A DNA stretch of 64,000 bases, from positions 211,298 through 275,297 of the IMG/VR virus record IMGVR_UViG_3300033463_000001, one strand, 5' to 3'. How positions within the stretch are numbered: the stretch's first letter is position 1; each line of letters begins with the position of its first letter. A program made the translations under genes and the position numbers. The notes below the pieces were generated by a model. That model worked only from the letters and a program-made list of their open reading frames with translations, was not told where the DNA came from and did not search any database. This document shows, piece after piece, positions 17,190-52,073 of the stretch. The DNA is from a virus. Taxonomy: Duplodnaviria > Heunggongvirae > Uroviricota > Caudoviricetes.

Positions 17190-17192
17190 GGA

Positions 17193-17204: not shown

Positions 17205-17301
17205 TAGCAGATTTAATTACATTGGCGTGCCGGAGACGGCTCGTTTAGGAAGGTCGAGAATACCTCTTTGCTGTATTTATTGTAAGACAAAAACATGTTA
17301 T

Positions 17302-17868: not shown

Positions 17869-17870
17869 CC

Positions 17871-18548: not shown

Positions 18549-18556
18549 TACAATAT

Positions 18557-20128: not shown

Positions 20129-20169
20129 TTAAAAGCGCTAGGACATTCCTGTCCAGCGCATAAACAGCA

Positions 20170-20583: not shown

Positions 20584-20587
20584 AATT

Positions 20588-20651
20588 TAGGGTGGCTATC
20601 TACTTTCTCCAGAAATGGGAAGTTAAGAATAAGATAATGATAGCGACATAC
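20588..20651 (+). other. conserved TR leader element (copy 3)
   Basis: AGGGTGGCTATCTACTTTCTCCAGAAATGGGAAGTTAAGAATAAGATAATGATAG; same architecture as the TR1 and TR3 leaders. Confidence 0.45.
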
Positions 20652-20768
20652 GGCAACTGGTGGACGTCTTGTCAGAACAGTTCGACTAATGGAGTCAAAC
20701 TGAATAGTGGCTCCTTCAACAACAACAACAAGAACAACAGTAACTCTGTGTTGGTTTTGTTCGAGCCT
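20652..20768 (+). repeat. DGR template region TR2
   Basis: AAC-rich copy of VR2 ending 4 nt before the RT2 ATG. The ORF-track 'protein' 20592..20780 is just its translation. Confidence 0.85.
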
Positions 20769-20772
20769 AAAT

Positions 20773-21996
20773 ATGAGTGAGTGGTGTACAATAGAAGAAG
20801 TATATGCTGCCTATCTTGACTGTAAAAAGCACAAAACAAGGTCTAGTTCATACGCAGAATTTGCTGCTAACGAAGCAATAAATTTGTATGAATTATGGCT
20901 TGATTTGAATAATCATACCTATAAAATTGGTTTAAGTGACGCATTTTGTGTTACACGGCCAAAAGTTAGGGAAGTATTCGCTGCTAGGTTTCGCGACCGT
21001 ATAGTTCACCATTTGGTGATTATGCGATTGTTGCCTATATTTGAACAACATTTTATTGAAGATACGTATAATTGCCGAAAAGGGAAGGGTACGGATTACG
21101 GAATTAATCGTGTATTGAATTTTACTAAAAACCACCCAAATGGTTGGATATTAAAGTATGATATAAGTTGTTTTTTCATGAGTATTAACAAAACTTTGTT
21201 AAACTCAATGCTGAAAACATTTATTTGCGATAATTATAGTAGGGATGACAAAGACGAGATTTTATCTTTGGTAGAAATGATTGTCATGCATCGCCCTGAA
21301 TTGCTTTGTATAAGGAAAGGTGATTTAAGCTTATGGAATCAATTACAAAAAGGAAAATCTTTATTTCGCAGCGACGGAAATCACGGCCTTGCAATTGGCA
21401 ACCTTACAAGCCAGATATTTGCGAATTTCTACATGTCGCAAATAGATAAATGGCTAGCAAGTATTGATGGTGTAGAATATGGAAGGTATGTTGATGATGC
21501 AATTTTAGTATCTGACGATAAAAATTTATTACTATCTATACTCCCCAAACTGCGTGAGCGATTAAGCGTTGAGCTTGATTTAGAACTACATAAAAAGAAA
21601 ATATACATACAACCAGTCAGGCATGGCGTTTCGTTTTTAGGGAGCGTAATTAAGAATGGGCGTTTATATGCAGGAAATCATACAGTTACAAATGCATTTA
21701 ATATAACGAAAGAGTTTGCGTGTAGGTTAGATAAGGAGAGTTGCGTTGAAAAATTTGCACAGCGATACAATTCTTATATGGGATATCTAATACATCGTAA
21801 AACATACGCAATCCGATGGAATCTATGGAATAATGTAGATGAAGAAACAAAAAAGTTTGTATACTTAACAAAACGCATGGGTTTAATGCGTGTAAGGGAT
21901 GTGTACAAAGAGAAAACTAAGCTAAAAAGTCAATATAAACATGATAAAAGAAACATTAGCAATAAACGACTGGGAGGAGTTGTCAAAGGCTTTTAA
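20773..21996 (+). CDS. DGR-type reverse transcriptase 2
   Basis: Start moved to ATG 20773 (MSEWCTIEEV), downstream of TR2. Motifs IGNLTSQIFANFYM and YGRYVDDAILV. About 50% identical to RT1 by eye. Confidence 0.9.
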   Translation: MSEWCTIEEVYAAYLDCKKHKTRSSSYAEFAANEAINLYELWLDLNNHTYKIGLSDAFCVTRPKVREVFAARFRDRIVHHLVIMRLLPIFEQHFIEDTYNCRKGKGTDYGINRVLNFTKNHPNGWILKYDISCFFMSINKTLLNSMLKTFICDNYSRDDKDEILSLVEMIVMHRPELLCIRKGDLSLWNQLQKGKSLFRSDGNHGLAIGNLTSQIFANFYMSQIDKWLASIDGVEYGRYVDDAILVSDDKNLLLSILPKLRERLSVELDLELHKKKIYIQPVRHGVSFLGSVIKNGRLYAGNHTVTNAFNITKEFACRLDKESCVEKFAQRYNSYMGYLIHRKTYAIRWNLWNNVDEETKKFVYLTKRMGLMRVRDVYKEKTKLKSQYKHDKRNISNKRLGGVVKGF

Positions 21997-22501
21997 GGTT
22001 GGTAATAAGCAATTCTATTACTTACGCATGTTCAAAAAAGACCTGCCTGGTGATTTGTGTGTTTGCTACACCGAATTAGTTGACCACCAACCAACACAAG
22101 AAGAAAAGGATGAGTTGTATGCAGCTTATCTTGCCGGAATGAAAAATATGGTAATAGACGAGATTGTCGCATATGATTCTTCTAGTGCCGTAAACAAATT
22201 CTATATCAACGGTATTGAAGCGTGGCTGGATAAACAGACTCGTGTTGGATTAGTGAACCTTCTGGAATCGCAAAAGAAAACAGAACACACTCGCACAACA
22301 CTTTGGTTTAATGGAACACCAATCGAGTTAGATATTGAAACAGCGCTCAATATGTTGTATGAGCTTGAGGTATACGCTGGCTTATGTTATAACCAAACGG
22401 AATTACATAAAGCCAATGTGTTAGCTTTAGTAAATATTGATGACGTCGAAAACTATGGCTACACAACAGGATATCCTGAATACCTCGAATTTGAGGTGTG
22501 A
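21941..22501 (+). CDS. DGR-module-associated ~186 aa protein, paralog (copy 3 of 3)
   Basis: KFYINGIEAWLDKQTRVGLVNLL...LEVYAGLCYN...TTGYPEYLEF. Confidence 0.55.
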   Translation: MIKETLAINDWEELSKAFKVGNKQFYYLRMFKKDLPGDLCVCYTELVDHQPTQEEKDELYAAYLAGMKNMVIDEIVAYDSSSAVNKFYINGIEAWLDKQTRVGLVNLLESQKKTEHTRTTLWFNGTPIELDIETALNMLYELEVYAGLCYNQTELHKANVLALVNIDDVENYGYTTGYPEYLEFEV

Positions 22502-22621: not shown

Positions 22622-23008
22622 TTAGTACACAACCTCTTCGCAGTTGTATCCCTGTTTCCTAATCCAGTCAGCAACGAGATGCCTATGACAGAAGTCGCCT
22701 GGTTTCTCGTAGCACAAGAGCGTTAATTCATCAAGCGCTACGCCATCGGAACCGTAGAATTCATTCAAATCGAACAGGACGTTGAGTATATCCAATTTCG
22801 ATAACACCTCATTGTTAAACCTGCGTGTATACAGTTCCGTGTCTCCTTTTTCAACTCCACCATTTTTGTAAGCATTCAAGATGCTATATGTCGGTGCTAG
22901 CTTCTTATATTCAGGTTTTCCTAGTGCTGTGTACCACACAGGTGCTTTCGCTGCGATAGAGACGGGATATTTGATTTGTTTTAACTTTGCAAAATAACTG
23001 GTTTTCAT
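22622..23008 (-). CDS. DUF488-family protein
   Basis: 128 aa with the conserved ...EKPGDFCHRHLVADWI... block typical of DUF488. Last gene of the NAD operon. Confidence 0.5.
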   Translation of the reverse strand: MKTSYFAKLKQIKYPVSIAAKAPVWYTALGKPEYKKLAPTYSILNAYKNGGVEKGDTELYTRRFNNEVLSKLDILNVLFDLNEFYGSDGVALDELTLLCYEKPGDFCHRHLVADWIRKQGYNCEEVVY

Positions 23009-23754
23009 AGTCCATAGAGTTTATGTTCATGCATGTACCTGAGCGACTCCTTGTAGTTTGGCAACCACTGTTGTAAATTTTTCTTATTTACATCAAACTG
23101 TATGCTTGCGTTAGGAATGCTTCCGATACATCTCCTCAGTTCTGTTGACGATATCTCCTGGATGTTGATATTCTCAGCGTAGATGCAGTTGTCATTCAGC
23201 AAGCGCCTATCAACCTCGTATCCTTTGCGTGGGATGATGATTATCTTAACAATGCCGGAGTTCAATAACCAGTTGTAGTCCTTGAACTTTTCTATACTAT
23301 TAAAGCTATCAACACCCATCACAAAGTAATACTGGTTCTCATTGAAGACGTTCTCACAGACGATGCGCTTCAATGTATCAACAGTATATGCACATTGCGC
23401 GGTGCCGAAGTGAACAATCTCGTAAGGACTTATAACAATTTTATCCTTGAACCAGTCACGAATGAACTGAGGGTACTCCGGATTTAATGTCATTTGTTTT
23501 AGTGCAATGTCACACAACTTGCACCGGTGGTATGCATCAACAGTTTCTGAGTTACCTGTCTTGAACGGACTACACGGAGAAGGGAGGACATAAACCTTTT
23601 GCACAAGGACAGGATTCTCACGTTGCCCATCCCCAAGCAATGCCATTACCGTCTGTACGTGCCCAGCATGGATAGGATTGAATGAACCACCGTATATGGC
23701 GATTTTCGTACACCTATCCACACCTGGATGCATTAAGCCGTCAACTTCCAACAT
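23005..23754 (-). CDS. nadD: nicotinate/nicotinamide-mononucleotide adenylyltransferase
   Basis: GGSFNPIHAGH (HxGH nucleotidyltransferase motif), ...SPYEI..., FVMGVDSF and ISSTELR blocks match the NadD pattern. Confidence 0.8.
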   Translation of the reverse strand: MLEVDGLMHPGVDRCTKIAIYGGSFNPIHAGHVQTVMALLGDGQRENPVLVQKVYVLPSPCSPFKTGNSETVDAYHRCKLCDIALKQMTLNPEYPQFIRDWFKDKIVISPYEIVHFGTAQCAYTVDTLKRIVCENVFNENQYYFVMGVDSFNSIEKFKDYNWLLNSGIVKIIIIPRKGYEVDRRLLNDNCIYAENINIQEISSTELRRCIGSIPNASIQFDVNKKNLQQWLPNYKESLRYMHEHKLYGL

Positions 23755-23756
23755 AG

Positions 23757-24287
23757 TTAGTCAATATGTAGTTGGCGTGCCATGAACGGAACATGTTTGT
23801 AGAACATCTCCGGAATCAACTCTTCGTGGCCGAAAGCCCAGTCGTATGAATCTCTATCACCGAACGGAACCCATTTAATGCCTGCAATCTCGTCCACCTC
23901 AGAGTTCGTGTCGTTGAAGGTGAAATCACTTGTTACCTTATCGTTGATAACGGTTACATAACGCAGTGTGACATTCTGGTCTTTCTTCTTACTGAAGGAT
24001 ATCGAGTCAAATACCATCTGTTCTGGCTTCAACCCAACGCCTGTCTCCTCGAAGATTTCGCGAACAACTGCCTCGTTGCCATTCTCATCGAAGTCCAGGA
24101 ATCCGCACGGTGCGTTCCACTTGAAGTTCTCATCGGGACAACCGGCACCACGCTGATTAGCAAGCACGCACCATGTACCATCTTTGTCACGACAGAAAAC
24201 GAATCCTACAACTGCTACTGAACGACTACGCCAGTATGTCTGCCCGTCCACTTCGAACGGGAAATTTTTCATTATTCTCTCACCCAT
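23757..24287 (-). CDS. Nudix hydrolase (candidate ADP-ribose/NAD(H) pyrophosphatase)
   Basis: Perfect Nudix box GFLDFDENGNEAVVREIFEETGV (Gx5Ex7REUxEExGU). Confidence 0.8.
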   Translation of the reverse strand: MGERIMKNFPFEVDGQTYWRSRSVAVVGFVFCRDKDGTWCVLANQRGAGCPDENFKWNAPCGFLDFDENGNEAVVREIFEETGVGLKPEQMVFDSISFSKKKDQNVTLRYVTVINDKVTSDFTFNDTNSEVDEIAGIKWVPFGDRDSYDWAFGHEELIPEMFYKHVPFMARQLHID

Positions 24288-24288
24288 A

Positions 24289-25446
24289 CTATTGCTTAAT
24301 ATCTAATTCTTTCATCGCAACCTCCAACTCCTCAGGAAGACCCATCATCTTTCCCTTATCGTCGGAAATCTTCACACAATAGTTCCACTTCCAACCTCTG
24401 AACTGGCAGCGATTTAACTTCATAACGATGTTCATAGGCTTGTAACCGGTATCGTTTGTTAAATTTGTTCCGATGCCGGCGCTACACATGATTTTTCCAC
24501 TGCAGTACTCAGCAATCTCCTTGTACTTTGGGAAATCCAGCGCATTCGAGAAAACAATCGTCTTCGTTGTCGGGTCAATGCCATAGCTCTTGTAGAAGGC
24601 AACAACCTTATCAACGAATTCATACTCGTCACCGCTATCCTGGCGCACACCGTCGAACAGCTTTGCCTGCTTCAGCGTGAAGTTATTCAGGAAAGCATCC
24701 AATCCCCACGTATCGGTCAGTGCGATGCCAAGGTCACCGTCATAGGTGCGTACCCAGTTCTCGTATGCCTCGAAGTTGGCGTTGCGATAGCCGTACAGTG
24801 CACCGTGCATCATTATCCATTCGTGAGCAACAGTACCGATTGGCTTCATATCATATTTCCATGCCAGATGTACATTTGATGTACCAACACAATAGGCTGC
24901 GTAGTCTTTCAAGTACTCAACCACCATATCCTGTACCTCGTAACTGAAGCGACGGCGTGTTCCAAACTCAGAGAAGAGGAGGTTGTTGGTATTGGAGAGC
25001 ATAACCTTTGCCTCCAGGCGGCTCATCACTTCTTGCTTGTCAAGCTTGTTGTGATGGTTGCATGCCTCAGAAACGATTGCGAGGATGGGAACTTCGTACA
25101 GCGTGGCCTTGTACATGAGGTCTGTAACGGAGATATGAAGATGGCGCTGCTCGTCAACCCACAGGTCGATTTTATCTGACTCGAAACGGAATCCGGATAG
25201 CCACTCCCAGTAGAAAGCAGGGATGTACGGCATTTTCTCGATTGCCCATTCCTTCATATCCGGGGACATGGAAACCTTTTCCAGGTCGAACATCGCCATT
25301 TTAATGCGTGCAACCGTAGCGGCGTCGTACTCAGTATTATTGCGGTCGTTAAACACAAACTCACCCACCACATTAGGGAAGAGTTTCATATAAGCGTAGC
25401 CCATGCTAAACTTATACAAGTCATTATCAAGAAGGCTTTGAATCAT
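24289..25446 (-). CDS. pncB: nicotinate phosphoribosyltransferase family enzyme (PncB-like; NadV/Namat-like not excluded)
   Basis: N-terminal LLDNDLYKFSMGYAY (compare PncB LLDTDAYKLHM) and FGTRRR motif. Start moved to the MIQSLL Met (ORF track 25554 gives an N-extension). Confidence 0.75.
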   Translation of the reverse strand: MIQSLLDNDLYKFSMGYAYMKLFPNVVGEFVFNDRNNTEYDAATVARIKMAMFDLEKVSMSPDMKEWAIEKMPYIPAFYWEWLSGFRFESDKIDLWVDEQRHLHISVTDLMYKATLYEVPILAIVSEACNHHNKLDKQEVMSRLEAKVMLSNTNNLLFSEFGTRRRFSYEVQDMVVEYLKDYAAYCVGTSNVHLAWKYDMKPIGTVAHEWIMMHGALYGYRNANFEAYENWVRTYDGDLGIALTDTWGLDAFLNNFTLKQAKLFDGVRQDSGDEYEFVDKVVAFYKSYGIDPTTKTIVFSNALDFPKYKEIAEYCSGKIMCSAGIGTNLTNDTGYKPMNIVMKLNRCQFRGWKWNYCVKISDDKGKMMGLPEELEVAMKELDIKQ

Positions 25447-25711
25447 GTAAATAAAGTTGTTTAAAGTTTTCGTTATATTCTGCAATCTCCTTTTCGAGAC
25501 GTGCAATGCGTTCATCGCTGTATCCGGATATATCGTATACCTGACGGTCACCAATCACTTCGTCAACTGGCATGTAGAGCACTTTAACGGTATCATCAAA
25601 CTCAGAAGATATATGCTTGATGACATGTTCTACAAACTCAGGAACGTCGCCACGGTTAACGCCACCGATGTAAATCTGGATAACGATAATGCGTTTTTCT
25701 TTATCAGTCAT
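25427..25711 (-). CDS. hypothetical protein (94 aa)
   Basis: Compact ORF coupled to neighbours inside the operon; acidic C-terminus; no motif recognised. Confidence 0.45.
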   Translation of the reverse strand: MTDKEKRIIVIQIYIGGVNRGDVPEFVEHVIKHISSEFDDTVKVLYMPVDEVIGDRQVYDISGYSDERIARLEKEIAEYNENFKQLYLHDSKPS

Positions 25712-26540
25712 CGTTACAAATGATTAATGAATCAACAAAGGCACGGCCAGCACCGGTAAGGATAGGCATTTCAGTATCTACATACCATTGCGTGCGGACA
25801 GTCTCCTCACCGTGCTGGTTAGTAAACGATACACCCCTCTTGATGCATGCAGAACCACGCTTCTGCGGAATTGGTAGGTCATTCCAGTTAATACCTTTCT
25901 CCGTGAAGAGCTTATCTTGCAGCTTATTGCAGTTCAAGCCGAACATCTCCTTGTGTGAGAAATGTGCCTGTGCCAATGCCTGAATAGAGTTGCGTGTTGC
26001 ATCTTGCTGGCGCCAGAGGATATTATTGGTTACATCCTCTTTCGGAACATTGAACGCGCGACAGTCGAAGATGGCACCATCCAGTGTTACACGGTCATAT
26101 GCGTTATATACCTTGCGGAAATTATCCGTAGTAACGGTCAGGTCAACCACTTCTTTGGAACAGATGGCCATATTTGCTACGAAGTACGAGTTAAAGGCCT
26201 TGGTTGCCATGGATGCAGCAACGGAGCACATTTTCTGTACTTCATTATCGAACCATGCAGATGAGTTGAGTTTCTTGTAGTCTACAAGGATAAGCGTTAT
26301 CTCATCCGACTGTGTATAGCCGAATACACAACCTTGTATATGCTCACAGAGATACTTCATGGTATCCTGCATGGTTTTCATCATGACCGGGTCAAACGGT
26401 TTGATAAAGCCACGGGTTGTCGTGTGGAAGTGACACCCGTCGAGACGCAGAATAACCGGCATACGAGGAACAAGAGACGTCTTGCTGACCGCCTCGTACT
26501 TCTTCATTCTATCGCCGAGTGAATCGTTTTTGTTTGCCAT
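25704..26540 (-). CDS. tRNA-His guanylyltransferase (Thg1)-like 3'-5' nucleotidyltransferase
   Basis: VILRLDGCHFH...KPFD...GYTQSDEITLIL and ...LWRQQD... align with Thg1 family signatures (RLDGRNFH, AYGQSDE, SWRQAD). Confidence 0.75.
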   Translation of the reverse strand: MANKNDSLGDRMKKYEAVSKTSLVPRMPVILRLDGCHFHTTTRGFIKPFDPVMMKTMQDTMKYLCEHIQGCVFGYTQSDEITLILVDYKKLNSSAWFDNEVQKMCSVAASMATKAFNSYFVANMAICSKEVVDLTVTTDNFRKVYNAYDRVTLDGAIFDCRAFNVPKEDVTNNILWRQQDATRNSIQALAQAHFSHKEMFGLNCNKLQDKLFTEKGINWNDLPIPQKRGSACIKRGVSFTNQHGEETVRTQWYVDTEMPILTGAGRAFVDSLIICNDD

Positions 26541-26566
26541 AGTTGTAATAGTTTTTCAAATTCGCC

Positions 26567-26617
26567 CACAAAGATATGTAAAATTTTTGATATATACAAA
26601 TCCTGTGGACGAATTTT
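26567..26617 (-). promoter_or_regulatory. Bacteroidota-type promoter (TTTG-N20-TATCTTTG) within a 50 nt conserved repeat, copy 1 of 3
   Basis: Minus-strand read: AAAATTCGTCCACAGGATTTG-tatatatcaaaaattttaca-TATCTTTG, 22 nt before the Thg1 start. Near-identical copies at 44485-44535 and 51899-51949. Confidence 0.6.
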
Positions 26618-26619
26618 CA

Positions 26620-27198
26620 TTACTCTGCAGCAGCTGCGGCGCGTTTTGCCTTCTTTTCGGCAATCTTCGCCAGCTGTGCTGCCTTACGTTCTGCGCGCTC
26701 TTTCTCTTTTGCTTCGCGACGAGTTTTGAGGTAGGCTTGTTTCTTCTCGCGCTTTTCTGCACGAGCCTTCTCGTCGGCTTCCTCCTGTTTTTTCTTCTGC
26801 TCCTCTGCTTTCTCAATTCGCTCTTTGCGCTTTGCAGCGAAGTCCTTGAAGTTCTGAATTTGCTCGTCAACAATCTCACGCAGGAAGACCTTGCCTTCAT
26901 CCGTTCCGTTGAGGAATGTAATGAATCCGCGTACTGCAGAACTGAGCGTGCTGGTCTTGTTCTCACATGCAGCAACCTCTTGTTCGAGAGAGCTCTTGGA
27001 ATTCATAATTCGTTCAACAAGAAGAGAAACTTCTTTGCGGAAACTGTAGGTAAGCGTCATCTTGGTATAGTAATGACTATACTCTTCCGGCGTCATTCCG
27101 TTGTGTTCTTTCTTGAAACGCTCCAGCGCCTCTTGGGATAACTGTTGAACATCGTCCAACGTCTCCATGGTGTTACCGTTTACACTTTTAATTGCCAT
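26620..27198 (-). CDS. hypothetical protein with Lys/Glu/Ala-rich coiled-coil tail
   Basis: 192 aa; C-terminal 70 aa low-complexity KEKRAE repeats. Confidence 0.5.
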   Translation of the reverse strand: MAIKSVNGNTMETLDDVQQLSQEALERFKKEHNGMTPEEYSHYYTKMTLTYSFRKEVSLLVERIMNSKSSLEQEVAACENKTSTLSSAVRGFITFLNGTDEGKVFLREIVDEQIQNFKDFAAKRKERIEKAEEQKKKQEEADEKARAEKREKKQAYLKTRREAKEKERAERKAAQLAKIAEKKAKRAAAAAE

Positions 27199-27211
27199 GT
27201 GTTCTCATTTG

Positions 27212-27400
27212 TTAATCGTCAATTACCTGCCAATCCTCGCGGTTAACGAACTTGTCAAACCACGGGCTGTTATCAATGGTACCTTCTTTTGTGCGTACGT
27301 AGAACAGATTATCATCGCCTACGAACCACCAGCCTTCCCACTCTGGGAGCTTAATCTTTTTGCCACTATATGCTGCGGCCAGCGCTAATCTAAAGTTCAT
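27212..27400 (-). CDS. small hypothetical protein (62 aa)
   Basis: Compact ORF between the coiled-coil gene and prs on the same strand. Confidence 0.4.
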   Translation of the reverse strand: MNFRLALAAAYSGKKIKLPEWEGWWFVGDDNLFYVRTKEGTIDNSPWFDKFVNREDWQVIDD

Positions 27401-27412
27401 ATCCTTTATTGT

Positions 27413-28309
27413 TTATACATTTGCGATTACATGTACCTTCGGATTCTTACCTGTGTAGATGCTATCCGTTGTGTAGATACCGGACAGTTCACCAACCAAC
27501 AGAGCGTCGAGAAGTTTTGTGTTCTCTGGGTGTGCATCTTTGTCTATGTAGCTGTTCTCAAGGTGTGTGCAGTATGCGAAGATATTCTTGAAACCACACT
27601 CACGCAGTTCCGATGCGCTCAGCACAACTGTTTCTCCCGTAGAGATAATATCATCGATGATGAGAGCTACCTTGTTTGCGAAGTACTCCGGCGTTGTGAT
27701 ACCTTCTGTGCCACGATGCTGGTGTAACCCGAACTCAACAATCTCCCTGGTATCGAAGTTTCGCAGTTTCTTACCGTAGAATACCGTAGATGCCAACTCA
27801 GTATCATTTGCGATATCCTTGTAGCGCTCCATGGCACCCATATCCGGGAAACAGAGTACGACGTCTCGATTGATGTAGGTCTTAATACCTTCAATTACCT
27901 TGCGGATGTATGTGTCAGGCGACATGACCTGAACGTTGTTAATCAACTCGCATGCCTTTGCAGAGTGAGGGTCAAGGAAATAAACCTTGGTGAAATGTAG
28001 TGAGTTAATGACATCAGCGAAATGCTTCAGTGTAAATACCTGCTTCTCATCCTCAACACGGTCGAGTCGTGCGTTCGGCATGTACGGCACTGTAAGCGTG
28101 ATTTGCGGGCAGCGCTTATCCATGTTTTTAAACGTGTCACGGATGTGTTTAACGAGATAGATGATTGTGATTAGTTCACCTTCGTTTTCGTACGTCCAGT
28201 GAATATCCTGAACACCATGGTAGCGCACTGCAACGTTGAACATCTTCAGTGTTCCGTCGGCAAAGTGTTCGTTGCCGACAACTAATTCTCCATTATAAAG
28301 TGTTATCAT
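27413..28309 (-). CDS. prs: ribose-phosphate pyrophosphokinase family enzyme (PRPP synthetase or ADPR-PP synthetase-like)
   Basis: VPYMPNARLDR (compare IPYFGYARQDR), FLDPHS (DLH), VALIIDDIISTGETV (PRPP-binding loop), NIFAYCTHL. Divergent from housekeeping Prs. Confidence 0.75.
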   Translation of the reverse strand: MITLYNGELVVGNEHFADGTLKMFNVAVRYHGVQDIHWTYENEGELITIIYLVKHIRDTFKNMDKRCPQITLTVPYMPNARLDRVEDEKQVFTLKHFADVINSLHFTKVYFLDPHSAKACELINNVQVMSPDTYIRKVIEGIKTYINRDVVLCFPDMGAMERYKDIANDTELASTVFYGKKLRNFDTREIVEFGLHQHRGTEGITTPEYFANKVALIIDDIISTGETVVLSASELRECGFKNIFAYCTHLENSYIDKDAHPENTKLLDALLVGELSGIYTTDSIYTGKNPKVHVIANV

Positions 28310-29061
28310 ACTGTTTGTGTTGTGTACATTGTGTTAGGTTGTAACGAATTTGGTTCGCTTACAGGCTCTTTGTATTTCTCTGCCTTTTTGAAGTCTTCGT
28401 TGAACTCGATGTAAGCTGCTTTCCATTTGTCGAACTCTTCTTGAGTGATAGGGTAGATAGCGTACTTGTCAGCCATGTACATGAATCCTGCCTCGCCGGC
28501 CATGCACTTATCGTCACCTTCTTTCAACGGGTGTCCGATGAAGATGTGGCCAAGGTGTGCTTCGTGGAAGCTTGCAATACAATTAATTTCCTCATCCGGA
28601 CGGAACGAACGTGTGAATACAAATCTGTTTACAGTTCCGGCGTATTGTTTATTGAGTCCGAATGCAACCAAGTAAGCCTCGTTTTCTTCTTTGTATGCGT
28701 GGCCACCAATCTTGACGAGCTTCTTCGCATCTTCGTTTCCGATGATATATTCAACGAAATATTCAGCCTCTACCGTAGAAACAGTAGCCGTTGGAATGTC
28801 GATACCGTTCACCTCAGTGATTGTTTCAATCTTGAGTTTATAGATATCGTTTTCTACATCGTGCTCCACTTCAAGAACCTTATCGAACAAGCGCATGCAC
28901 GCGCCGTTTTGGAACTTGTTGGTGTGGAATACCGTACCAGGCACAACTGCCTCACAGAATTTCTGAACGAGCTTACCCTGCTTGTAGAGTGCAATTAACT
29001 CACGTGCCATGAATATCAACATGATAACAATGGCTACAATAAAGACAATCTTTACAGTCAT
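28306..29061 (-). CDS. hypothetical membrane-anchored protein
   Basis: 251 aa; N-terminal hydrophobic helix (IVFIVAIVIMLIFMA); start overlaps the pncA stop. Confidence 0.5.
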   Translation of the reverse strand: MTVKIVFIVAIVIMLIFMARELIALYKQGKLVQKFCEAVVPGTVFHTNKFQNGACMRLFDKVLEVEHDVENDIYKLKIETITEVNGIDIPTATVSTVEAEYFVEYIIGNEDAKKLVKIGGHAYKEENEAYLVAFGLNKQYAGTVNRFVFTRSFRPDEEINCIASFHEAHLGHIFIGHPLKEGDDKCMAGEAGFMYMADKYAIYPITQEEFDKWKAAYIEFNEDFKKAEKYKEPVSEPNSLQPNTMYTTQTV

Positions 29062-29657
29062 ACAGCATCTGATTTAATGACTTTAATCTGGCAACTTTTC
29101 ATCACGTCCAGCGCCTCTGCGTGTTTCTCCGGTGTTGTTCCAGCACTCAGGTCTTCAATGACACGAATAACAGCGTCAGGATAGGTTGCGCGCAGGATAA
29201 GTGCATTGCTTACAACACAAATATCGGTACATACACCCATTATATCAATCACGTATCCTTCTCCGGCGAAATCATCATTGTTTTTCCTGATAGGGATAAT
29301 GTCGAGCAGGTCATACATCCAGTGTATGTTGCCGAAGGTGTTTTTCTCAATACGACGGCATGACAGTTCGCTGAACTTATCTGCTACCTCGTTAATCTGA
29401 TGATTTAACGCATGACCCCACGAACCCTTGATGCAGTGCTCAACCGGCAGGTTTATACCTTCCAACGTCTCAAGATAGTTTTTCTCGTGCGTATCGAGAG
29501 TGAAAACGGTCATCTCGTAGTCCTTGTGTGTGCGTTCCAGGAAATCAGCCATCTTCTCTACAATGGCAACCGTATCCTTATTTGCGAGTGTTCCGGTCTG
29601 TGAACAGAAGTCGTTTTGCATGTCAACGACAACCAGTAAATGTTTTGATTTAGACAT
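29058..29657 (-). CDS. pncA: nicotinamidase (isochorismatase family)
   Basis: LLVVVDMQNDFC, DTH, PVEHCIKGSWGHAL, IEK, MGVCTDICV match the PncA catalytic Asp/Lys/Cys and metal-binding positions. Confidence 0.8.
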   Translation of the reverse strand: MSKSKHLLVVVDMQNDFCSQTGTLANKDTVAIVEKMADFLERTHKDYEMTVFTLDTHEKNYLETLEGINLPVEHCIKGSWGHALNHQINEVADKFSELSCRRIEKNTFGNIHWMYDLLDIIPIRKNNDDFAGEGYVIDIMGVCTDICVVSNALILRATYPDAVIRVIEDLSAGTTPEKHAEALDVMKSCQIKVIKSDAV

Positions 29658-29669
29658 ATGCGTGCTGTG

Positions 29670-30542
29670 TTATCCGATGTTATACGAAGGAGCCAGTTCT
29701 GGTACCAATGAATCATTTACAGAGAAAAGGTAACGACCGTCACATAAAGTCGGCGTATCCTCTGTTTCAAATACAGTGTTATCCATGTCATACAAGAGTC
29801 CGGGAGCCGGTTGGAACATTGGAACAGGCATCAGCTTGAACAGGTTCTTGTTGTGACGATTGGTGATATTTTCAAGGTCTGTCTGCGATGCGCATTCGCC
29901 TGTACGGATATACTTATCAAGTGTTGCGTAGGTAAAACCGAACTTCTCTTCATCCGTAGCGCCAACGAGTCCATCAGCTGGAGCTTTCTCGATAAAGCGC
30001 TTATCAAGGCCGAGTTCATAGCCGATTTCCTTCACCTCACTTGCTGTTAGGAGTGCGAACGGCATTACGTCACCAACGGAGTCTCCCCAACGGGTCATCC
30101 ATCCAACCCAATCCTCAGAGTAGTTACTGGTGTTCACAACGCGGCCATTGCAAGACTGAGCCACTGCATATAGTACAGACATACGCAATCTCGGAGGCAA
30201 GTTCCACTTTGTCTGGTCAGTGATAGAGATGCCTGCGTCATCAATTCCTGCGAGGATGGCGTCGTATGCGCAACGTATATTAACCGTTACGTTCTGTATT
30301 CCAAGCGTTTTACACAGGTCTTGCGATACGTTAATGTCAGATTGTACACCATTCGGAATGAGAACACCGAGAACATTCTCCTTACCGATAGCAGCACAGC
30401 ACAACGCGGCCATGATACTTGAATCCTTGCCACCAGAGATACCGATGACGAGTTTACAACCTTTTGCGTTGGCCTCGTACCATGTAATCAGGAACCTCTT
30501 GAGTGATTCACATGTTTCTTTTCGATTGAAATTATAATTCAT
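29670..30542 (-). CDS. nadE: NH3-dependent NAD+ synthetase
   Basis: PP-loop VIGISGGKDSS plus LIPNGVQ, TVNI and C-terminal KAP.DGL...DE..FGFTY blocks align with NadE. Confidence 0.85.
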   Translation of the reverse strand: MNYNFNRKETCESLKRFLITWYEANAKGCKLVIGISGGKDSSIMAALCCAAIGKENVLGVLIPNGVQSDINVSQDLCKTLGIQNVTVNIRCAYDAILAGIDDAGISITDQTKWNLPPRLRMSVLYAVAQSCNGRVVNTSNYSEDWVGWMTRWGDSVGDVMPFALLTASEVKEIGYELGLDKRFIEKAPADGLVGATDEEKFGFTYATLDKYIRTGECASQTDLENITNRHNKNLFKLMPVPMFQPAPGLLYDMDNTVFETEDTPTLCDGRYLFSVNDSLVPELAPSYNIG

Positions 30543-30585
30543 ACAACGTGTATTTTCTTAAACTCAATACTAATATAGTCCTTTT

Positions 30586-31167
30586 TTAGGAATCTTGACT
30601 CTTTTCTACGTACAATTTGCAACAACAACGGTTCTTTGTACGATATCCCTCACATGGACAATGTAAATCTCCGTCATTCTCCGGGTGTTTGCACGGACAG
30701 TTGCCATCACAGCGTTGGATTCCCTTATAGATACCCTTTCGAACTGCTATATTGTCAGTCAGCTTAAATCCGTCCAACTCAGTGACAGGAACTAGGTACG
30801 TCGGTGCCTGTAGTTCAACGCGCTCTCCGTTTGGCTTATAGATGATGAACGCGAATGAGTAGCCATCCGTCTCGAAACCACGTATATCTCCGTACTCACC
30901 ATCCGGAAGTAGGTAGTCGCGACGTGTGTCTGCTTCATTTATGACGGTGTCAATCCACTCTTGCGCTCCTGCCGGAAGGTACTTGTTGTCGTTGATGAAT
31001 AAACCTTGTGCGTATGCCAGTTCCATCTGGTAGAAGAGCCTGCGCTCAGTGATATACTCTCCGCGAAGATACGGTTGCTCAATACGCAGGATAACCTTGT
31101 TGCCTTTACCGTATTTGCGCATCAGTTTCTTGAATATGCGTGCGTCTTTAGTAATATATGTTTTCAT
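30586..31167 (-). CDS. hypothetical protein with Cys-rich C-terminus
   Basis: 193 aa; C-terminal CDGNCPCKHPENDGDLHCPCEGYRTKNRCCC cluster suggests metal binding. Confidence 0.5.
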   Translation of the reverse strand: MKTYITKDARIFKKLMRKYGKGNKVILRIEQPYLRGEYITERRLFYQMELAYAQGLFINDNKYLPAGAQEWIDTVINEADTRRDYLLPDGEYGDIRGFETDGYSFAFIIYKPNGERVELQAPTYLVPVTELDGFKLTDNIAVRKGIYKGIQRCDGNCPCKHPENDGDLHCPCEGYRTKNRCCCKLYVEKSQDS

Positions 31168-31174
31168 GCGTGTG

Positions 31175-31226
31175 TTAAAAAATAGGAGGAATGTAGCCAG
31201 GACATTCCGTCAGCATACATTCCTCC
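31175..31226 (-). terminator. Rho-independent terminator downstream of the flotillin-like gene
   Basis: Perfect 10 bp inverted repeat GGAGGAATGT...ACATTCCTCC. On the minus strand it is followed by TATTTTTTAA. Confidence 0.6.
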
Positions 31227-31243
31227 ACCAATGATAGTAGTGA

Positions 31244-32752
31244 TTACTTACCCTGTTGTCCCAGGTCAACACTTGCCGTTGCAACAGTAGAGTTGTCTTG
31301 CATGATTCGACTCAGGTCAACGCCGGTAGCTTCTTTAACGACGTCCATGGTCTGTTTCATCAGCACTGGGACGTTCCCAGAAAGTCCGGAAACCTCATTA
31401 CCGGTTGTTCCATAGACACGTACATCACCAATCTGACTCAGCGGGCTTGCAACCTTCTCGGCAACCTCAGGAAGAACGTGTACCATCATCTCTGCAAGTG
31501 CTGCAGGACCGTATTTCTTGAATGCCTCAGCCTTCTTGTCCATTGCGGCTGCTTCTGCCTCACCTTTAGCCTTGATGGCTGCGGCTTCTGCCTTACCGAC
31601 AGCCTCGATACCGGCTGCTTTCTGTTGTTGAGCGAAGAGGTCTGCCTCTGCCTTTGCCTTGATGGCGCGTGCTTGTTGCTCTGCCTCGTATGCTTCGGCC
31701 TCGGCTTTACGCTTGCGTTGCTCCAGTTCAGCTGCTGCGGCTTGCTCTTTCTGATACTTCTCAGCATCGGCTTGCTTGTTAACCTTTGCAGCGAGGGTCT
31801 TCTCCTGGATGGCAATCTCTTGCTCTTTGAGCTGTTGCTGTTGTTTTGCCTTCTCAACCTCTGCCTCAACGGCCTTGCGGTTAATAAGGAGTTGCTGCTC
31901 CTGAATACGAATCTCCTTTGCGGTAGAAGCCTCAACCGTCTTGACGTTAATGTCCTTTGCTTGCTCTTGTTTCTGAATCTCATAAGCTGCGTCAGCGATA
32001 GCCTTTTGTTTATCGGCCTTGCTTTTCAACTCAGACTGTTTGATGGACAGTTCAGTGTTCTTCTCGGCAATCTGCGTCTCTGCCTCAACGCGTGCATCGT
32101 TAGCCTCTTTCTGTGCAAGTGCTTTTGCAATAGCAACGTCGCGCTCTGCGTTAGCCTTGTTGATGGATGCATCTTTTGTAATCCTGCATGTGTTGTCAGC
32201 ACCGAGGGCGTAGATGAGACCGTCGTTGTCCTTAATGGTTTGAATGTTGCAAGAGATAATCTTGATACCCAGTTCTGTCATGTCCGGAGCTGCCTTTGCC
32301 TGAATCTGGTTAGAGAATCCGTCACGGTCAGTGTTCAACGAGCGTAGGTCTTGCGTACCGATAATCTCACGCATGTTACCTTGCAAGGAGTCACGAATTT
32401 CCTCTGCGATTTCCTCACGCGACTTATTAAGGAAGTTTGCAGCGGCAATGTCAATACAGTCACGGTCAATACTTACTTTGGCAACTGCGTCGACGTCAAC
32501 ATTGATAAAGTCGGATGTCGGAACGGGTGTACCTGTTTTGATGTCAACAGACAATTGTCCGAGATAGAGGGTATCAACACGATGCAATCCAGGGATACGG
32601 AATCCACCGGTACCAGTTAAATACCTCGGCTTTTTCAACGGCCAACCAGATACAACCAACGCTTTGTTTGGTCCAACTTTCACATAGCAGACTGCGAAGA
32701 ATAGCATCGCCAGTCCAAGCACTACAAGTGCAATAATTAATCCAGTACTCAT
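31244..32752 (-). CDS. flotillin-like SPFH/band-7 membrane protein
   Basis: 502 aa. N-terminal TM helix, SPFH-like core, then a >150 aa Ala/Glu/Lys/Gln coiled coil (EAEVEKAKQQQQLKEQE...), the classic flotillin (FloT/YqiK) architecture. Confidence 0.7.
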   Translation of the reverse strand: MSTGLIIALVVLGLAMLFFAVCYVKVGPNKALVVSGWPLKKPRYLTGTGGFRIPGLHRVDTLYLGQLSVDIKTGTPVPTSDFINVDVDAVAKVSIDRDCIDIAAANFLNKSREEIAEEIRDSLQGNMREIIGTQDLRSLNTDRDGFSNQIQAKAAPDMTELGIKIISCNIQTIKDNDGLIYALGADNTCRITKDASINKANAERDVAIAKALAQKEANDARVEAETQIAEKNTELSIKQSELKSKADKQKAIADAAYEIQKQEQAKDINVKTVEASTAKEIRIQEQQLLINRKAVEAEVEKAKQQQQLKEQEIAIQEKTLAAKVNKQADAEKYQKEQAAAAELEQRKRKAEAEAYEAEQQARAIKAKAEADLFAQQQKAAGIEAVGKAEAAAIKAKGEAEAAAMDKKAEAFKKYGPAALAEMMVHVLPEVAEKVASPLSQIGDVRVYGTTGNEVSGLSGNVPVLMKQTMDVVKEATGVDLSRIMQDNSTVATASVDLGQQGK

Positions 32753-32837
32753 AATTTAATTTAGTGTGTTTTGTGAATTTCGTATCTAATATAGTCCGGA
32801 TAATCCGATTCTTGTAACGAATACTTGATTATTTTAG

Positions 32838-43910: not shown

Positions 43911-44261
43911 TTACTTATCAAGGAATTCTTGTATTTGTTTTACTGTCTCATCGTGCGTTTCTTTTGTGTATGGGAACACTCTCATAACTTTACTCGCTGG
44001 TGATGTGTTGCAAGCGTATGTTAGTGTGTACAGGTATTCGTTCAGGTATGCACCTTGTAGCCCTGTAGAGTCAAACACAACGAGTATTCTGTATGGTGCG
44101 CCTTTTCCCTCTGCGATGATGCGCGTAGTTCTAGCGTAAGAGCCTAGTGTGTTTCTATTATTGACATTGATACGGTGGGCTTCTTTGAAACTTGTAATGT
44201 TGAGTGATTTGATAAATGCATCACCAGTTTCAGCTCTGTCCGTTACGATGTAGAGGTTCAT
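43911..44261 (-). CDS. hypothetical protein (116 aa)
   Basis: ORF, no motif. Confidence 0.4.
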   Translation of the reverse strand: MNLYIVTDRAETGDAFIKSLNITSFKEAHRINVNNRNTLGSYARTTRIIAEGKGAPYRILVVFDSTGLQGAYLNEYLYTLTYACNTSPASKVMRVFPYTKETHDETVKQIQEFLDK

Positions 44262-44460
44262 AGTGCTCCTTTCTCTTTAAGTTTGTTTGCGAGTCGATTT
44301 GTTTTGACAATTTTATACCATATTCCATCAAATGTTGTATTTTCTCTCGTTCCTCTTTTGAAAACTGTTTCGGAGGCTTTCCACAGACCATTGGTGGGTA
44401 GTCAACAATTATAAGACCAGTCTTTTCGTACGCCCAGACGTTATTTCCTAAACTAAACAT
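44230..44460 (-). CDS. small hypothetical protein (76 aa; start moved)
   Basis: ORF-track start 44487 would fall inside the -7 box of promoter 44485-44535. The next ATG (44460, MFSLGNN) leaves a ~20 nt leader. Confidence 0.4.
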   Translation of the reverse strand: MFSLGNNVWAYEKTGLIIVDYPPMVCGKPPKQFSKEEREKIQHLMEYGIKLSKQIDSQTNLKRKEHYEPLHRNGQS

Positions 44461-44484
44461 AATACATAGTTCGTTAAAATCCGA

Positions 44485-44535
44485 CACAAAGGTAAGTAAA
44501 ATTTTTCAATTTTGCAAATCCTTTAGATGAATTTT
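44485..44535 (-). promoter_or_regulatory. Bacteroidota-type promoter within a 50 nt conserved repeat, copy 2 of 3
   Basis: Minus-strand read: AAAATTCATCTAAAGGATTTG-caaaattgaaaaattttac-TTACCTTTG (TTTG ... TAccTTTG). Confidence 0.55.
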
Positions 44536-44544
44536 ACAAACTTA

Positions 44545-51548: not shown

Positions 51549-51881
51549 TTATTCTTCTAGTTGGTCAATAATTTCTAATCCGTTATTTGTGCTGGCCTCA
51601 CAAAAGTTCCGCAAGCCTTGTTCAAACTCGTCCATATCGAACTTGCTGCCAGTACTAGTGTGACATCTGAATTTGTAGTGGCATTCCGGGCATTCAAACA
51701 CAGCCATCAATCCCCAACTTGTTTCACACCAGCCGATGATGTTTGCTTTGATGTATCTACCCTCTTTATCCCACGCCGCATATGCCAAGTCGCAACGTCC
51801 ACATTTACAGTTTAATCCTGCGGAATATGGAATAGTTTCCCATTGGGTGATTTTCGGTAAAATATCAGTAATTCTTTTCAT
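51549..51881 (-). CDS. hypothetical Cys-rich (zinc-finger-like) protein (110 aa)
   Basis: CKCGRC...CPECHYKFRC pairs. First gene after promoter 51899-51949. Confidence 0.45.
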   Translation of the reverse strand: MKRITDILPKITQWETIPYSAGLNCKCGRCDLAYAAWDKEGRYIKANIIGWCETSWGLMAVFECPECHYKFRCHTSTGSKFDMDEFEQGLRNFCEASTNNGLEIIDQLEE

Positions 51882-51898
51882 GCGCTTTCAAATTTCGG

Positions 51899-51949
51899 TG
51901 CAAAGATATGTAAAAATTTTGAATTTTGCAAATCCTTTGGACGATTTTT
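51899..51949 (-). promoter_or_regulatory. Bacteroidota-type promoter within a 50 nt conserved repeat, copy 3 of 3
   Basis: Minus-strand read: AAAATCGTCCAAAGGATTTG-caaaattcaaaatttttaca-TATCTTTG, 13 nt before ATG 51881. Divergent from the + strand fibre genes. Confidence 0.6.
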
Positions 51950-52064
51950 GGCTATTATCCATGGATTTGCATGTCTCGCTACTAATATAGTCCCGGTGAA
52001 CGGTACTTTGTACCACAATCGTTGATTTTTATCTGGCATAAGGTATGAAACCGTTGAAATACGT

Positions 52065-52073
52065 ATTTATTGG
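52065..52073 (+). promoter_or_regulatory. TATTTATTG motif (copy 5)
   Basis: ACGTATTTATTGGTAGTAG, 19 nt upstream of ATG 52093. Confidence 0.4.

What the first reader, a model, noticed from the sequence alone, without database searches (positions are those of the whole stretch)
26567..26617. Fifty-nt promoter-containing repeat present three times (also 44485-44535 and 51899-51949)
Three near-identical elements lie directly upstream of minus-strand genes: AAAAT(T/C)(C/G)(T/A)(C/T)C(A/T)A(A/C)AGGATTTG-N19-20-TA(T/c)CTTTG. The TTTG and TAnnTTTG boxes with ~20 nt spacing match the Bacteroides primary-sigma promoter consensus. This also points to a Bacteroidota host. Conservation extends ~17 nt upstream of the -33 box, suggesting an additional bound factor or UP-like element. 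The element marks operon starts, including the NAD operon's Thg1 segment and the start of the early block at 51881.
Basis: partly seen in the sequence, partly recalled or inferred. Interest (0 to 1): 0.55.

Follow-up and report, generated by a model that had tools for sequence, protein, structure and literature searches.

The report
Repeated host-type early promoters in a jumbo phage
A 327-kb phage that very probably infects a Bacteroidota bacterium carries at least six copies of a ~66-base promoter-plus-leader cassette. The cassette matches its host's main promoter consensus almost perfectly, which is the usual way large phages capture the host RNA polymerase for their first genes, so the finding is real but of a familiar kind.

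Summary
AGGATTTG-N20-TAYCTTTG occurs exactly three times in the window, always on the minus strand and 19-28 nt upstream of a minus-strand start codon; none are expected by chance.

The repeat is longer than reported, about 66 nt (roughly -52 to +14). It includes a conserved first ~12 transcribed bases, GAAATTTGAAA.

The window belongs to a 327-kb circular phage genome. Walking about 27 kb past the right end found three more copies. Two of them sit in tandem directly upstream of a phage sigma-factor gene.

The boxes and spacing fit the Bacteroidota primary-sigma consensus (TTTG / TAnnTTTG). Several results support a Bacteroidota host:
- Genes lack Shine-Dalgarno sequences and have A-rich leaders with A at -3.
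- A generic form of the pattern hit 20 places in reference genomes, 18 of them Bacteroidota.
- The phage carries a host-like RNAP alpha-CTD gene.

Two other motif classes mark other gene sets. GGACTATATTAG lies upstream of replication and metabolism genes. TATTTATTG lies 14-21 nt upstream of plus-strand, partly tail-fibre-like, genes. Together they suggest an early/middle/late cascade.

Best reading: very strong early promoters read by host sigma-A RNA polymerase, analogous to T4 early promoters. This is a new member of a known kind. No transcription data exist.

The parts
26550..26621 (-). Class I cassette copy 1. UP-like AAAATTCGTCCACAGGA at 26617-26601; -33 TTTG at 26600-26597; -7 box TATCTTTG at 26576-26569; predicted start near 26564/26563; conserved leader GAATTTGAAAAAC. 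It begins immediately after the stop codon of the upstream gene (26620-26622).
   Evidence: This is the only copy with a strong hairpin across the whole element (13-nt inverted repeat; RNA fold -23.7 kcal/mol, z = -6.7).
25704..26540 (-). Gene served by copy 1: Thg1-like tRNA-His guanylyltransferase (278 aa). NAPRTase (24289-25554) lies downstream on the same strand.
   Evidence: Pfam Thg1 1.6e-29 and NAPRTase 1.7e-56; PHROG 4717. The ATG lies 28 nt after the -7 box.
44468..44539 (-). Class I cassette copy 2. -33 TTTG at 44518-44515; -7 box TACCTTTG at 44494-44487; predicted start near 44482; leader GGATTTTAACGAAC.
   Evidence: It fills the 84-nt gap between the genes at 44545-44988 and 44230-44460.
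44230..44460 (-). Gene served by copy 2: 76-aa protein of unknown function, first of a run of small minus-strand ORFs.
   Evidence: No Pfam, NCBIfam or PHROG match. The ATG lies 26 nt after the -7 box.
51882..51953 (-). Class I cassette copy 3. -33 TTTG at 51932-51929; -7 box TATCTTTG at 51908-51901; predicted start G near 51896; leader GAAATTTGAAAGCGC. It heads the minus-strand block of about 45 small ORFs (35593-51881).
   Evidence: In a variant strain about 97% identical (L051), 9 substitutions fall in the 211-nt intergenic region. Only 2 are in the cassette, both at positions that also vary among the copies.
51549..51881 (-). Gene served by copy 3: 110-aa protein of unknown function, first gene of the small-ORF block.
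   Evidence: The ATG lies 19 nt after the -7 box.
51982..51993 (-). Context: class II motif GGACTATATTAG, 28 nt upstream of copy 3, so copy 3 is probably also read through from a second promoter class.
   Evidence: The other exact copies are at 30570-30581 and 32786-32797, both on the minus strand.
52064..52072 (+). Context: class III motif TATTTATTG serving the divergent plus-strand gene 52093-53238. All three motif classes lie in the one 211-nt divergent region.
   Evidence: 6 copies against 1.2 expected, all on the plus strand and 14-21 nt upstream of plus-strand ATGs. The motif is conserved upstream of the homologous gene in a 42%-identical relative.

Best explanation
The elements are copies of a promoter-plus-leader cassette of about 66 nt (-52 to +14). 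After infection, the unmodified host RNA polymerase carrying the Bacteroidota primary sigma factor (sigma-A) recognises it.

Proposed contacts and roles:
- Sigma region 4 contacts GGATTTG at -33.
- Sigma region 2 contacts TAYCTTTG at -12 to -5.
- Transcription starts about 5 nt later, at the G of GAAATTTGAAA.
- The conserved A-tracts at about -53/-50 and -43/-40 (AAAATTCGTCCAAAGGA) act like the distal and proximal halves of an UP element for the alpha C-terminal domains.
- The conserved A/U-rich first 12 nt give an unstructured, Shine-Dalgarno-free leader suited to Bacteroidota translation.

Together these make a near-optimal 'uber-promoter' that out-competes host promoters. It drives the first wave of phage genes: the small-ORF block, a Thg1/NAD-salvage segment, a 615-aa protein and, from two tandem copies, a phage sigma factor. 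That sigma factor and a second one then plausibly switch polymerase to the GGACTATATTAG and TATTTATTG promoter classes.

Shown: the repeat, its significance, its position relative to genes, the consensus match, the host signals and the existence of the other motif classes. Inferred: that it fires, where it starts, its early timing, and the roles of the flanks.
For: - Significance: exact three-fold match with 0 expected. The PWM separates copies (81-84 bits) from background (at most 5.6 bits).
- Further copies: found outside the window with the same architecture, on either strand but always facing a gene.
- Extent of conservation: -52 to +14, with a variable discriminator (-4 to -1) and unrelated flanks.
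- Consensus: TTTG at -33 and TAnnTTTG at -7 (PMC7366714); box at -12 to -5 relative to mapped starts (PMC9723704).
- Strand bias: TAnnTTTG overall occurs at about the frequency my rough base-composition estimate gives for chance (52 sites). However, 7 sites lie 5-80 nt upstream of same-strand starts against 2.5 expected, and all 7 are on the minus strand. Plus-strand genes instead carry TATTTATTG.
- Host signals: SD-like 4-mers upstream of 11% of genes against 12% at random; A at -3 in 59%; A-rich from -10 to -17; 18 of 20 genome hits to the generic pattern are Bacteroidota.
- Tandem copies sit upstream of a phage sigma gene. A phage sigma factor that acts later must first be made by host polymerase.
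- A variant strain keeps all core positions.
- Another Thg1-carrying phage (L001) has its own family of three near-identical sigma-A-type promoters.
- Precedents: T4 early promoters are 'uber' UP/-35/TGn/-10 promoters with extra consensus regions (PMC2988021). A Bacteroides phage promoter with UP elements is the strongest known in B. thetaiotaomicron.
Against: - There are no transcription start or expression data for this phage.
- The host is uncultured and unidentified.
- No related phage carrying the same cassette was found, so conservation can only be judged among paralogous copies and two near-identical strains. Part of the similarity could therefore reflect recent duplication or gene conversion rather than function.
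- UP elements are not well defined in Bacteroidota, and the upstream block contains a conserved CGTC that is not typical of A/T-rich UP elements.
- The phage encodes two sigma factors and an alpha-CTD-like protein. Any of them could be the real reader of the family-specific positions.
Confidence: 0.75

Rival explanations
1. The core is a host-type promoter, but the family-specific flanks (-54 to -38 and +1 to +14, loosely dyad-symmetric around TTCG...CGAA) are operator sites for a phage-encoded protein. That protein would switch the whole class off, or boost it, during the early-to-middle transition. The free-standing alpha-CTD homologue encoded in a class II operon is one candidate.
For: - The flanks stay conserved even in the two diverged copies whose spacers have drifted.
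- The reverse complement of each window copy (and of the copy in L071) scores 10-22 bits against the family PWM at a fixed offset, compared with at most 5.6 bits elsewhere in the window.
- The phage encodes a 163-aa protein with a complete RNA_pol_A_CTD domain. It scores 33.7 bits against a cutoff of 23.8 and keeps the equivalents of R265, G296 and K298.
Against: - A direct test gives weak dyad symmetry: 12-13 of 19-20 arm positions, p = 0.03-0.17 per copy. The copies are homologous, so they count as roughly one observation. Generic host promoters reach 12.
- No binding data exist.
- Nothing links the alpha-CTD-like protein to these sites except plausibility.
Confidence: 0.15
2. The cassette is read by one of the phage's own sigma factors rather than by host sigma-A. 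The host-like boxes would reflect descent of the phage sigma from a primary sigma.
For: The phage has two sigma-70-family genes. The 218-aa protein has regions 1.2, 2 and 4 and is closest to primary or RpoS-type sigmas. The 301-aa protein has region 2 and is named 'primary sigma factor' by one source.
Against: - The 301-aa sigma gene is itself preceded by two cassette copies, and the 218-aa gene lies in an operon headed by a class II motif. A phage-sigma-only model therefore has a bootstrapping problem unless sigma is injected.
- Two other over-represented motif classes are available as targets for the phage sigmas.
- The match to the host consensus is complete in both boxes and in the spacing.
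Confidence: 0.07
3. The repeats act mainly as mobile or recombinogenic promoter-terminator cassettes, like PeSLs of T4-type phages, or as an RNA hairpin or processing site in read-through transcripts. Promoter activity would be secondary.
For: - Copies lie between small ORFs in a block that resembles a hyperplastic region.
- Copy 1 folds into a very stable hairpin (-23.7 kcal/mol, z = -6.7).
- PeSLs are a documented precedent (PMC4122927).
Against: - Hairpin potential is not conserved. The z-scores are -2.3, -1.3 and +0.65 for copies 2-4, and the left arm stays constant while the right arm changes without compensation.
- No terminator-like site precedes the copies.
- No Rfam family matches.
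- No gene-content difference flanking a copy was seen between the assemblies compared.
Confidence: 0.03

Closest known systems
Bacteroidota primary-sigma (sigma-A / sigma-ABfr) promoters: -33 TTTG, -7 TAnnTTTG
   Same: Both boxes are present, with a 20-nt gap between TTTG and TA. The distance to the start codon is compatible with a start 5 nt after the box and a short SD-less leader.
   Different: Host promoters share little beyond the two boxes. That is visible in the 20 genome hits and 16 viral or metagenome hits, which match only at the forced positions. The phage copies share 71-78% identity over 69 nt.
T4 early promoters (Pe): 'uber' UP/-35/TGn/-10 promoters
   Same: There are many copies in one large phage genome. 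Each matches every host recognition element and carries additional phage-specific consensus positions, upstream A/T-rich tracts included. The inferred role is immediate capture of host polymerase (PMC2988021).
   Different: The host phylum, sigma and box sequences all differ. Timing and strength are untested here. No Alt-like ADP-ribosyltransferase was identified; this phage instead has sigma factors and an alpha-CTD homologue.
Bacteroides phage promoter P_BfP1 / P_BfP1E6 (Whitaker et al. 2017, used as a strong constitutive promoter)
   Same: It is a phage-derived Bacteroides promoter with UP elements plus the -7 consensus and its own leader/RBS. It gives far higher expression than native promoters.
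   Different: I could not obtain its sequence, so no direct comparison was made. It is one characterised promoter rather than a repeated family.
PeSL promoter-early/stem-loop cassettes of T4-type phages
   Same: These are short, well-conserved regulatory repeats scattered among small ORFs of unknown function (PMC4122927).
   Different: PeSLs are composite terminator-plus-promoter units tied to indels between sister phages. Here there is no terminator-like site upstream of the copies, the hairpin is not conserved, and no associated indels were seen.

Membership tests
Bacteroidota sigma-A-dependent promoter | -7 box TAnnTTTG | tested here: met
   The window copies carry TATCTTTG, TACCTTTG and TATCTTTG. 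The copies outside carry TATCTTTG, TATATTTG and TATATTTG.
Bacteroidota sigma-A-dependent promoter | -33 box TTTG at the consensus distance from the -7 box | tested here: met
   TTTG-N20-TA in all six copies. The exact published spacer range was not retrieved from a paper; I recall 19-21 nt from memory.
Bacteroidota sigma-A-dependent promoter | Located upstream of, and oriented towards, a gene, with a short SD-less leader | tested here: met
   The -7 box lies 19-34 nt from the ATG on the same strand for five of the six copies; the upstream tandem copy lies further from the sigma gene. There is no SD enrichment across the window.
Bacteroidota sigma-A-dependent promoter | A transcription start about 5 nt downstream of the box, dependent on sigma-A holoenzyme | not testable with these tools
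   Needs dRNA-seq, 5'-RACE or in vitro transcription.
Phage early promoter class (T4 Pe-like) | Multiple copies sharing consensus beyond the host elements | tested here: met
   Six copies in about 99 kb. The conserved block spans -52 to +14, and 39 of 69 positions are invariant among the first four copies.
Phage early promoter class (T4 Pe-like) | Active immediately after infection without phage protein synthesis | not testable with these tools
   Indirect support only. Two copies precede a phage sigma gene, and other gene sets carry different motifs.
UP element (alpha-CTD binding site) | A/T-rich tracts between -40 and -60 that raise promoter activity through alpha-CTD contact | tested here: inconclusive
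   Conserved A-tracts lie at about -53/-50 and -43/-40. They are separated by a conserved CGTC, which is not typical of UP elements. Activity and alpha-CTD contact are untested.
PeSL (promoter-early stem-loop cassette) | Terminator-type stem-loop coupled to the promoter | tested here: not met
   No terminator-like site on the minus strand upstream of copies 1 and 2. Whole-element hairpin z-scores run from -6.7 to +0.65.
PeSL (promoter-early stem-loop cassette) | Indels between sister genomes bounded by the cassettes | tested here: inconclusive
   Only near-identical assemblies were available. No differences were seen at the copies.
Structured RNA family (Rfam) | Match to a curated covariance model or conserved secondary structure | tested here: not met
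   No Rfam hit in the window at gathering thresholds. The predicted fold is not conserved.

The most novel reading that the evidence does not exclude
The cassette is more than a strong promoter. Its conserved flanks would be the target of the phage's own free-standing RNAP alpha-CTD homologue, a protein type absent from PHROGs. That protein, made from a class II operon, would occupy the UP-like site and displace the host alpha-CTD, shutting off the whole early class (or host UP-dependent promoters). A second possibility is that the -7-like nAnnTTTG sequence at +1 to +8, which I read by eye in 4 of the 6 aligned copies, causes sigma-dependent promoter-proximal pausing. Either would be a previously undescribed way for a phage to time early transcription in Bacteroidota.
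Probability: 0.12. Interest if true: 0.7.

Novelty: new member of a known kind. Interest (0 to 1): 0.35.

Why it matters
Transcription programmes of Bacteroidota phages that use the host polymerase are almost unmapped, and very large gut and rumen phages are known only from metagenomes.

This cassette and the two other motif classes give a concrete, testable early/middle/late map for a 327-kb phage. They also give sequence-only evidence for its host phylum.

Practically, a compact 66-nt promoter-plus-leader that evolved to out-compete host promoters is a candidate high-expression part for Bacteroides or Prevotella engineering, as the P_BfP1E6 phage promoter already is.

It does not change how phage early transcription is understood.

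Tried and rejected
- Phage GenBank collection: megablast of 28 kb of the window gave no match.
- Pattern scans for family members: 0 hits in IMG/VR with the strict 25-base pattern. Looser patterns gave 8 hits in IMG/VR and 8 in metagenome contigs, all generic Bacteroidota-type promoters with no similarity outside the forced positions. The source contig is evidently not in those two collections.
- Relatives through neighbouring proteins:
  - The 381-aa protein has one distant relative (42% identity), whose locus lacks the cassette and has no TAnnTTTG at all.
  - 48 Thg1-encoding viral loci lack the cassette upstream of Thg1.
- RNA structure: the fold is not conserved across copies, and there is no Rfam match.
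- Dyad symmetry or operator idea: only weak support.
- PeSL-like terminator: none found.
- Bidirectional promoter: by inspection, the reverse strand of the cassette has no TAnnTTTG.
- Two window-edge proteins were not on record under my ORF boundaries. Adjusted boundaries worked.
- The Whitaker 2017 paper could not be retrieved, so there is no sequence comparison with P_BfP1.
- No tRNA genes in the window.

Full report

Yes. On the minus strand the three stated places read:
- GAAAATTCGTCCACAGGATTTGTATATATCAAAAATTTTACATATCTTTGTGGGCGAATTTGAAAAAC
- TAAAATTCATCTAAAGGATTTGCAAAATTGAAAAATTTTACTTACCTTTGTGTCGGATTTTAACGAAC
- CAAAAATCGTCCAAAGGATTTGCAAAATTCAAAATTTTTACATATCTTTGCACCGAAATTTGAAAGCG

The pattern AGGATTTG-N{17,22}-TANNTTTG matches exactly these three sites and nothing else on either strand. 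None were found in 100 dinucleotide-preserving shuffles. A 72-nt weight matrix scores the copies 81-84 bits. The best unrelated site in the window scores 5.6 bits, and shuffled sequence reached at most 12.9.

Aligning 200 nt around each copy shows that similarity starts at the AAAAT tract and ends about 14 nt after the predicted start. The flanks are unrelated (A1). The unit is therefore about 66 nt rather than 50. The spacer is 20 nt in every copy, and pairwise identity is 71-78% over 69 nt.

**2. Where the window comes from, and further copies**

The 110-aa protein downstream of the third copy is encoded on contigs of 327,292 and 327,291 bp from two independent assemblies with different start points. 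This indicates a circular or circularly permuted genome of about 327 kb.

It has no close relative in the GenBank phage collection, and its cassette is absent from IMG/VR and the metagenome contig set.

Fetching DNA beyond the window's right end gave three more copies:
- A fourth copy lies about 700 nt outside the window (L071:7805-7876), 17 nt upstream of a 615-aa gene.
- After a further walk, two more diverged copies appeared in tandem, 104 nt apart (L092:16825-16896 and 16929-17000). They are on the opposite strand from the window copies but again face a gene, a 301-aa sigma-70-family protein.

With six copies, the conserved positions run from about -52 to +14. The discriminator (-4 to -1) and everything beyond +14 are variable. 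About 99 kb of the 327 kb could be read, so the true copy number is unknown.

**3. What it is**

The boxes match the published consensus for the Bacteroidota primary sigma factor: TTTG near -33 and TAnnTTTG at -7 (PMC7366714). In a mapped flavobacterial transcriptome the -7 box occupies -12 to -5 (PMC9723704). That places the start at the G of GAAATTTGAAA and gives leaders of about 15-30 nt.

Each window copy fills one of the few intergenic gaps in a tightly packed minus-strand array.

TAnnTTTG as such is no more frequent than my rough base-composition estimate for chance (52 sites). Seven sites lie 5-80 nt upstream of a same-strand start against 2.5 expected. All seven serve minus-strand genes and none serves a plus-strand gene.

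**4. Host**

Four lines of evidence, independent of the promoter boxes themselves, point to Bacteroidota:
- Shine-Dalgarno-like 4-mers occur upstream of 11% of genes, against 12% at random positions.
- Leaders are A-rich, with A at -3 in 59% of genes and G at -1 in 1%. This is the SD-less, Kozak-like pattern described for the phylum (PMC6847099, abstract).
- A generic 19-base version of the pattern (GGATTTG-N13-TTTTAC-N-TANNTTTG) found 20 sites in 185,579 species-representative genomes. Eighteen are in Bacteroidota, many from rumen or gut (Prevotella, Alistipes, Muribaculaceae, RUG bins). I estimate about four chance hits from the size of the collection.
- The phage encodes an RNAP alpha-CTD homologue whose best solved-structure match is the alpha subunit of Porphyromonas gingivalis RNAP (8DKC; E = 2.8e-6, against about 1e-3 for E. 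coli).

**5. Context: two other motif classes**

Reading the remaining intergenic regions revealed two more over-represented motifs.

TATTTATTG:
- It occurs six times in the window (1.2 expected; 0 of 100 shuffles reach 6). All six are on the plus strand, and each lies 14-21 nt upstream of a plus-strand start codon.
- The genes it serves include the block that ends in a Peptidase_S74 tail-fibre-like protein.
- In the only distant relative found (42% protein identity), the single TATTTATTG in 8.8 kb sits 20 nt upstream of the homologous gene.

GGACTATATTAG:
- It occurs three times exactly in the window, all on the minus strand.
- Two copies lie 28-34 nt upstream of the NAD synthase and SPFH/flotillin genes. 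The third lies just upstream of cassette copy 3.
- Further copies outside the window precede a primase-like operon that contains a 218-aa sigma factor, and other operons.

The 211-nt divergent region at 51882-52092 carries one member of each class.

This fits a temporal cascade. Host-type class I promoters would fire first and make, among other things, a phage sigma factor. Classes II and III would then serve replication/metabolism genes and late, partly virion-type, genes. The assignment of particular sigma factors to particular classes is inference only.

**6. Why the extra conservation?**

The most economical reading is the one established for T4. Its early promoters match every host recognition element, UP elements included, and show additional consensus positions, which makes them exceptionally competitive (PMC2988021).

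Here the conserved A-tracts near -53/-50 and -43/-40 sit where UP subsites would be. The conserved A/U-rich first 12 nt form most of a short leader in an organism that relies on unstructured A-rich leaders.

Three further observations bear on this:
- A Bacteroides phage promoter with UP elements and its own RBS is already the strongest known expression part in B. thetaiotaomicron.
- Another Thg1-carrying phage (L001, 184 kb) has its own family of three near-identical sigma-A-type promoters with a different spacer consensus (TATTTGGTTATTTGAAAAAA...TAYCTTTGCA). Phage-specific families of this sort therefore seem to recur in phages with this promoter type.
- A variant strain about 97% identical has nine substitutions in the 211-nt intergenic region. 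Two fall in the cassette, both at positions that already vary among copies, and four cluster in the 14 nt just upstream of it. This is consistent with constraint but not significant on its own. By my calculation the chance that none of nine hits a family-invariant position is about 0.16.

**7. Alternatives examined**

Dyad symmetry or operator:
- The reverse complement of each window copy scores 13-22 bits against the family matrix at a constant offset. Copy 1 has a 13-nt inverted repeat.
- A direct symmetry test gives only p = 0.03-0.17 per copy. Generic host promoters reach similar values.

RNA hairpin:
- Copy 1 folds at -23.7 kcal/mol (z = -6.7), but copies 2-4 give z = -2.3, -1.3 and +0.65.
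- The difference comes from changes in the right arm alone, without compensation.
- Rfam finds nothing in the window.

PeSL-type terminator/promoter cassettes: there is no terminator-like site upstream of copies 1 and 2, and no indels were seen at the copies in the assemblies available.

Reading by a phage sigma factor: this is possible in principle, since there are two sigma genes. One of those genes lies behind two cassette copies and the other behind a class II motif, while the cassette matches the host consensus completely.

**8. Verdict**

- The element is a promoter-plus-leader cassette of about 66 nt.
- It has at least six copies.
- Two of the window copies are internal promoters rather than clear operon starts.

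It is a new member of a known kind: phage early promoters built on the host consensus with added phage-specific positions.

The more unusual items turned up beside it: two phage sigma factors, a free-standing alpha-CTD homologue with no PHROG family, and a conserved TATTTATTG motif. Everything about activity and timing remains to be measured.

Noticed in passing
L093:13377-13868 (+), about 20 kb beyond the right end of the window, same phage: A 163-aa protein whose C-terminal 70 residues form a complete RNA polymerase alpha C-terminal domain (PF03118, 33.7 bits against a 23.8 cutoff). It keeps the equivalents of E. coli R265, G296 and K298. It ends in LQFGMDL, like one of the two best-matching alpha subunits in the PDB search (9n9p, organism not identified). 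The best match overall is P. gingivalis RNAP alpha, 8DKC. The N-terminal 90 residues have no match, and there is no PHROG family. A free-standing alpha-CTD in a phage looks unusual and could act on UP-like sites.
   Followed up: partly
window 9893, 14456, 17274, 32838, 33409, 52064 (+); also L068:3302 (+): TATTTATTG occurs six times (1.2 expected), always on the plus strand and 14-21 nt upstream of a plus-strand start codon. It is conserved upstream of the homologous gene in a 42%-identical relative. This is probably the late-promoter motif of this phage lineage.
   Followed up: partly
window 30570-30581, 32786-32797, 51982-51993 (-); L092:4586, 14193, 18362 (+): Exact 12-mer GGACTATATTAG, 28-34 nt upstream of the NAD synthase and SPFH/flotillin genes in the window. 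Outside the window it precedes a primase-like operon and other operons. It contains a TATATT that resembles a -10 box. This is probably a second (middle) promoter class.
   Followed up: partly
L071:908-1564 (-) = L093:194-850 (+); L093:8301-9206 (+): Two phage sigma-70-family genes. One is a 218-aa minimal sigma with regions 1.2, 2 and 4, closest to primary or RpoS-type sigmas. The other is a 301-aa protein with region 2, which sits directly behind two tandem cassette copies.
   Followed up: partly
window 10640-22000 (+): Two reverse transcriptase genes (12642-13877 and 20707-21996; PHROG 1423, about 1e-76). Three variable-repeat/template-repeat-like pairs link the 3' ends of large genes to nearby non-coding repeats: 11818-11943 / 12513-12638 (94%), 20001-20119 / 20650-20768 (86%) and 16709-16843 / 17060-17194 (90%). 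These are probably two or three diversity-generating retroelement cassettes.
   Followed up: partly
window 22622-32752 (-): A metabolic gene cluster on the minus strand: Thg1-like guanylyltransferase, NAPRTase, a phosphoribosyltransferase-domain protein, NAD synthase and an SPFH/flotillin protein. A strong hairpin followed by a T-run lies at about 31175-31225, just downstream of the flotillin gene.
   Followed up: no
L001:14492-14563, 14752-14823 (+) and 7535-7606 (-): An unrelated 184-kb Thg1-carrying viral contig has its own family of three near-identical sigma-A-type promoters (TATTTGGTTATTTGAAAAAA-N6-7-TAYCTTTGCA). A fourth TTTG/TAnnTTTG site lies directly upstream of what looks like a tRNA gene.
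   Followed up: partly
window 43892-43899, 48301-48308, 47817-47824 (-): Three further TAnnTTTG boxes lie 19-52 nt upstream of minus-strand genes. Two have a TTG or TTTG about 19 nt upstream. None shows the extended family similarity. They are possibly ordinary-strength host-type promoters inside the small-ORF block.
   Followed up: no
L093:11826-12239 (+) and L093:3850-4638 (+): A cREC_REC (cyclic-phosphate processing receiver) domain protein and an ArdA anti-restriction homologue lie in the region beyond the window.
   Followed up: no
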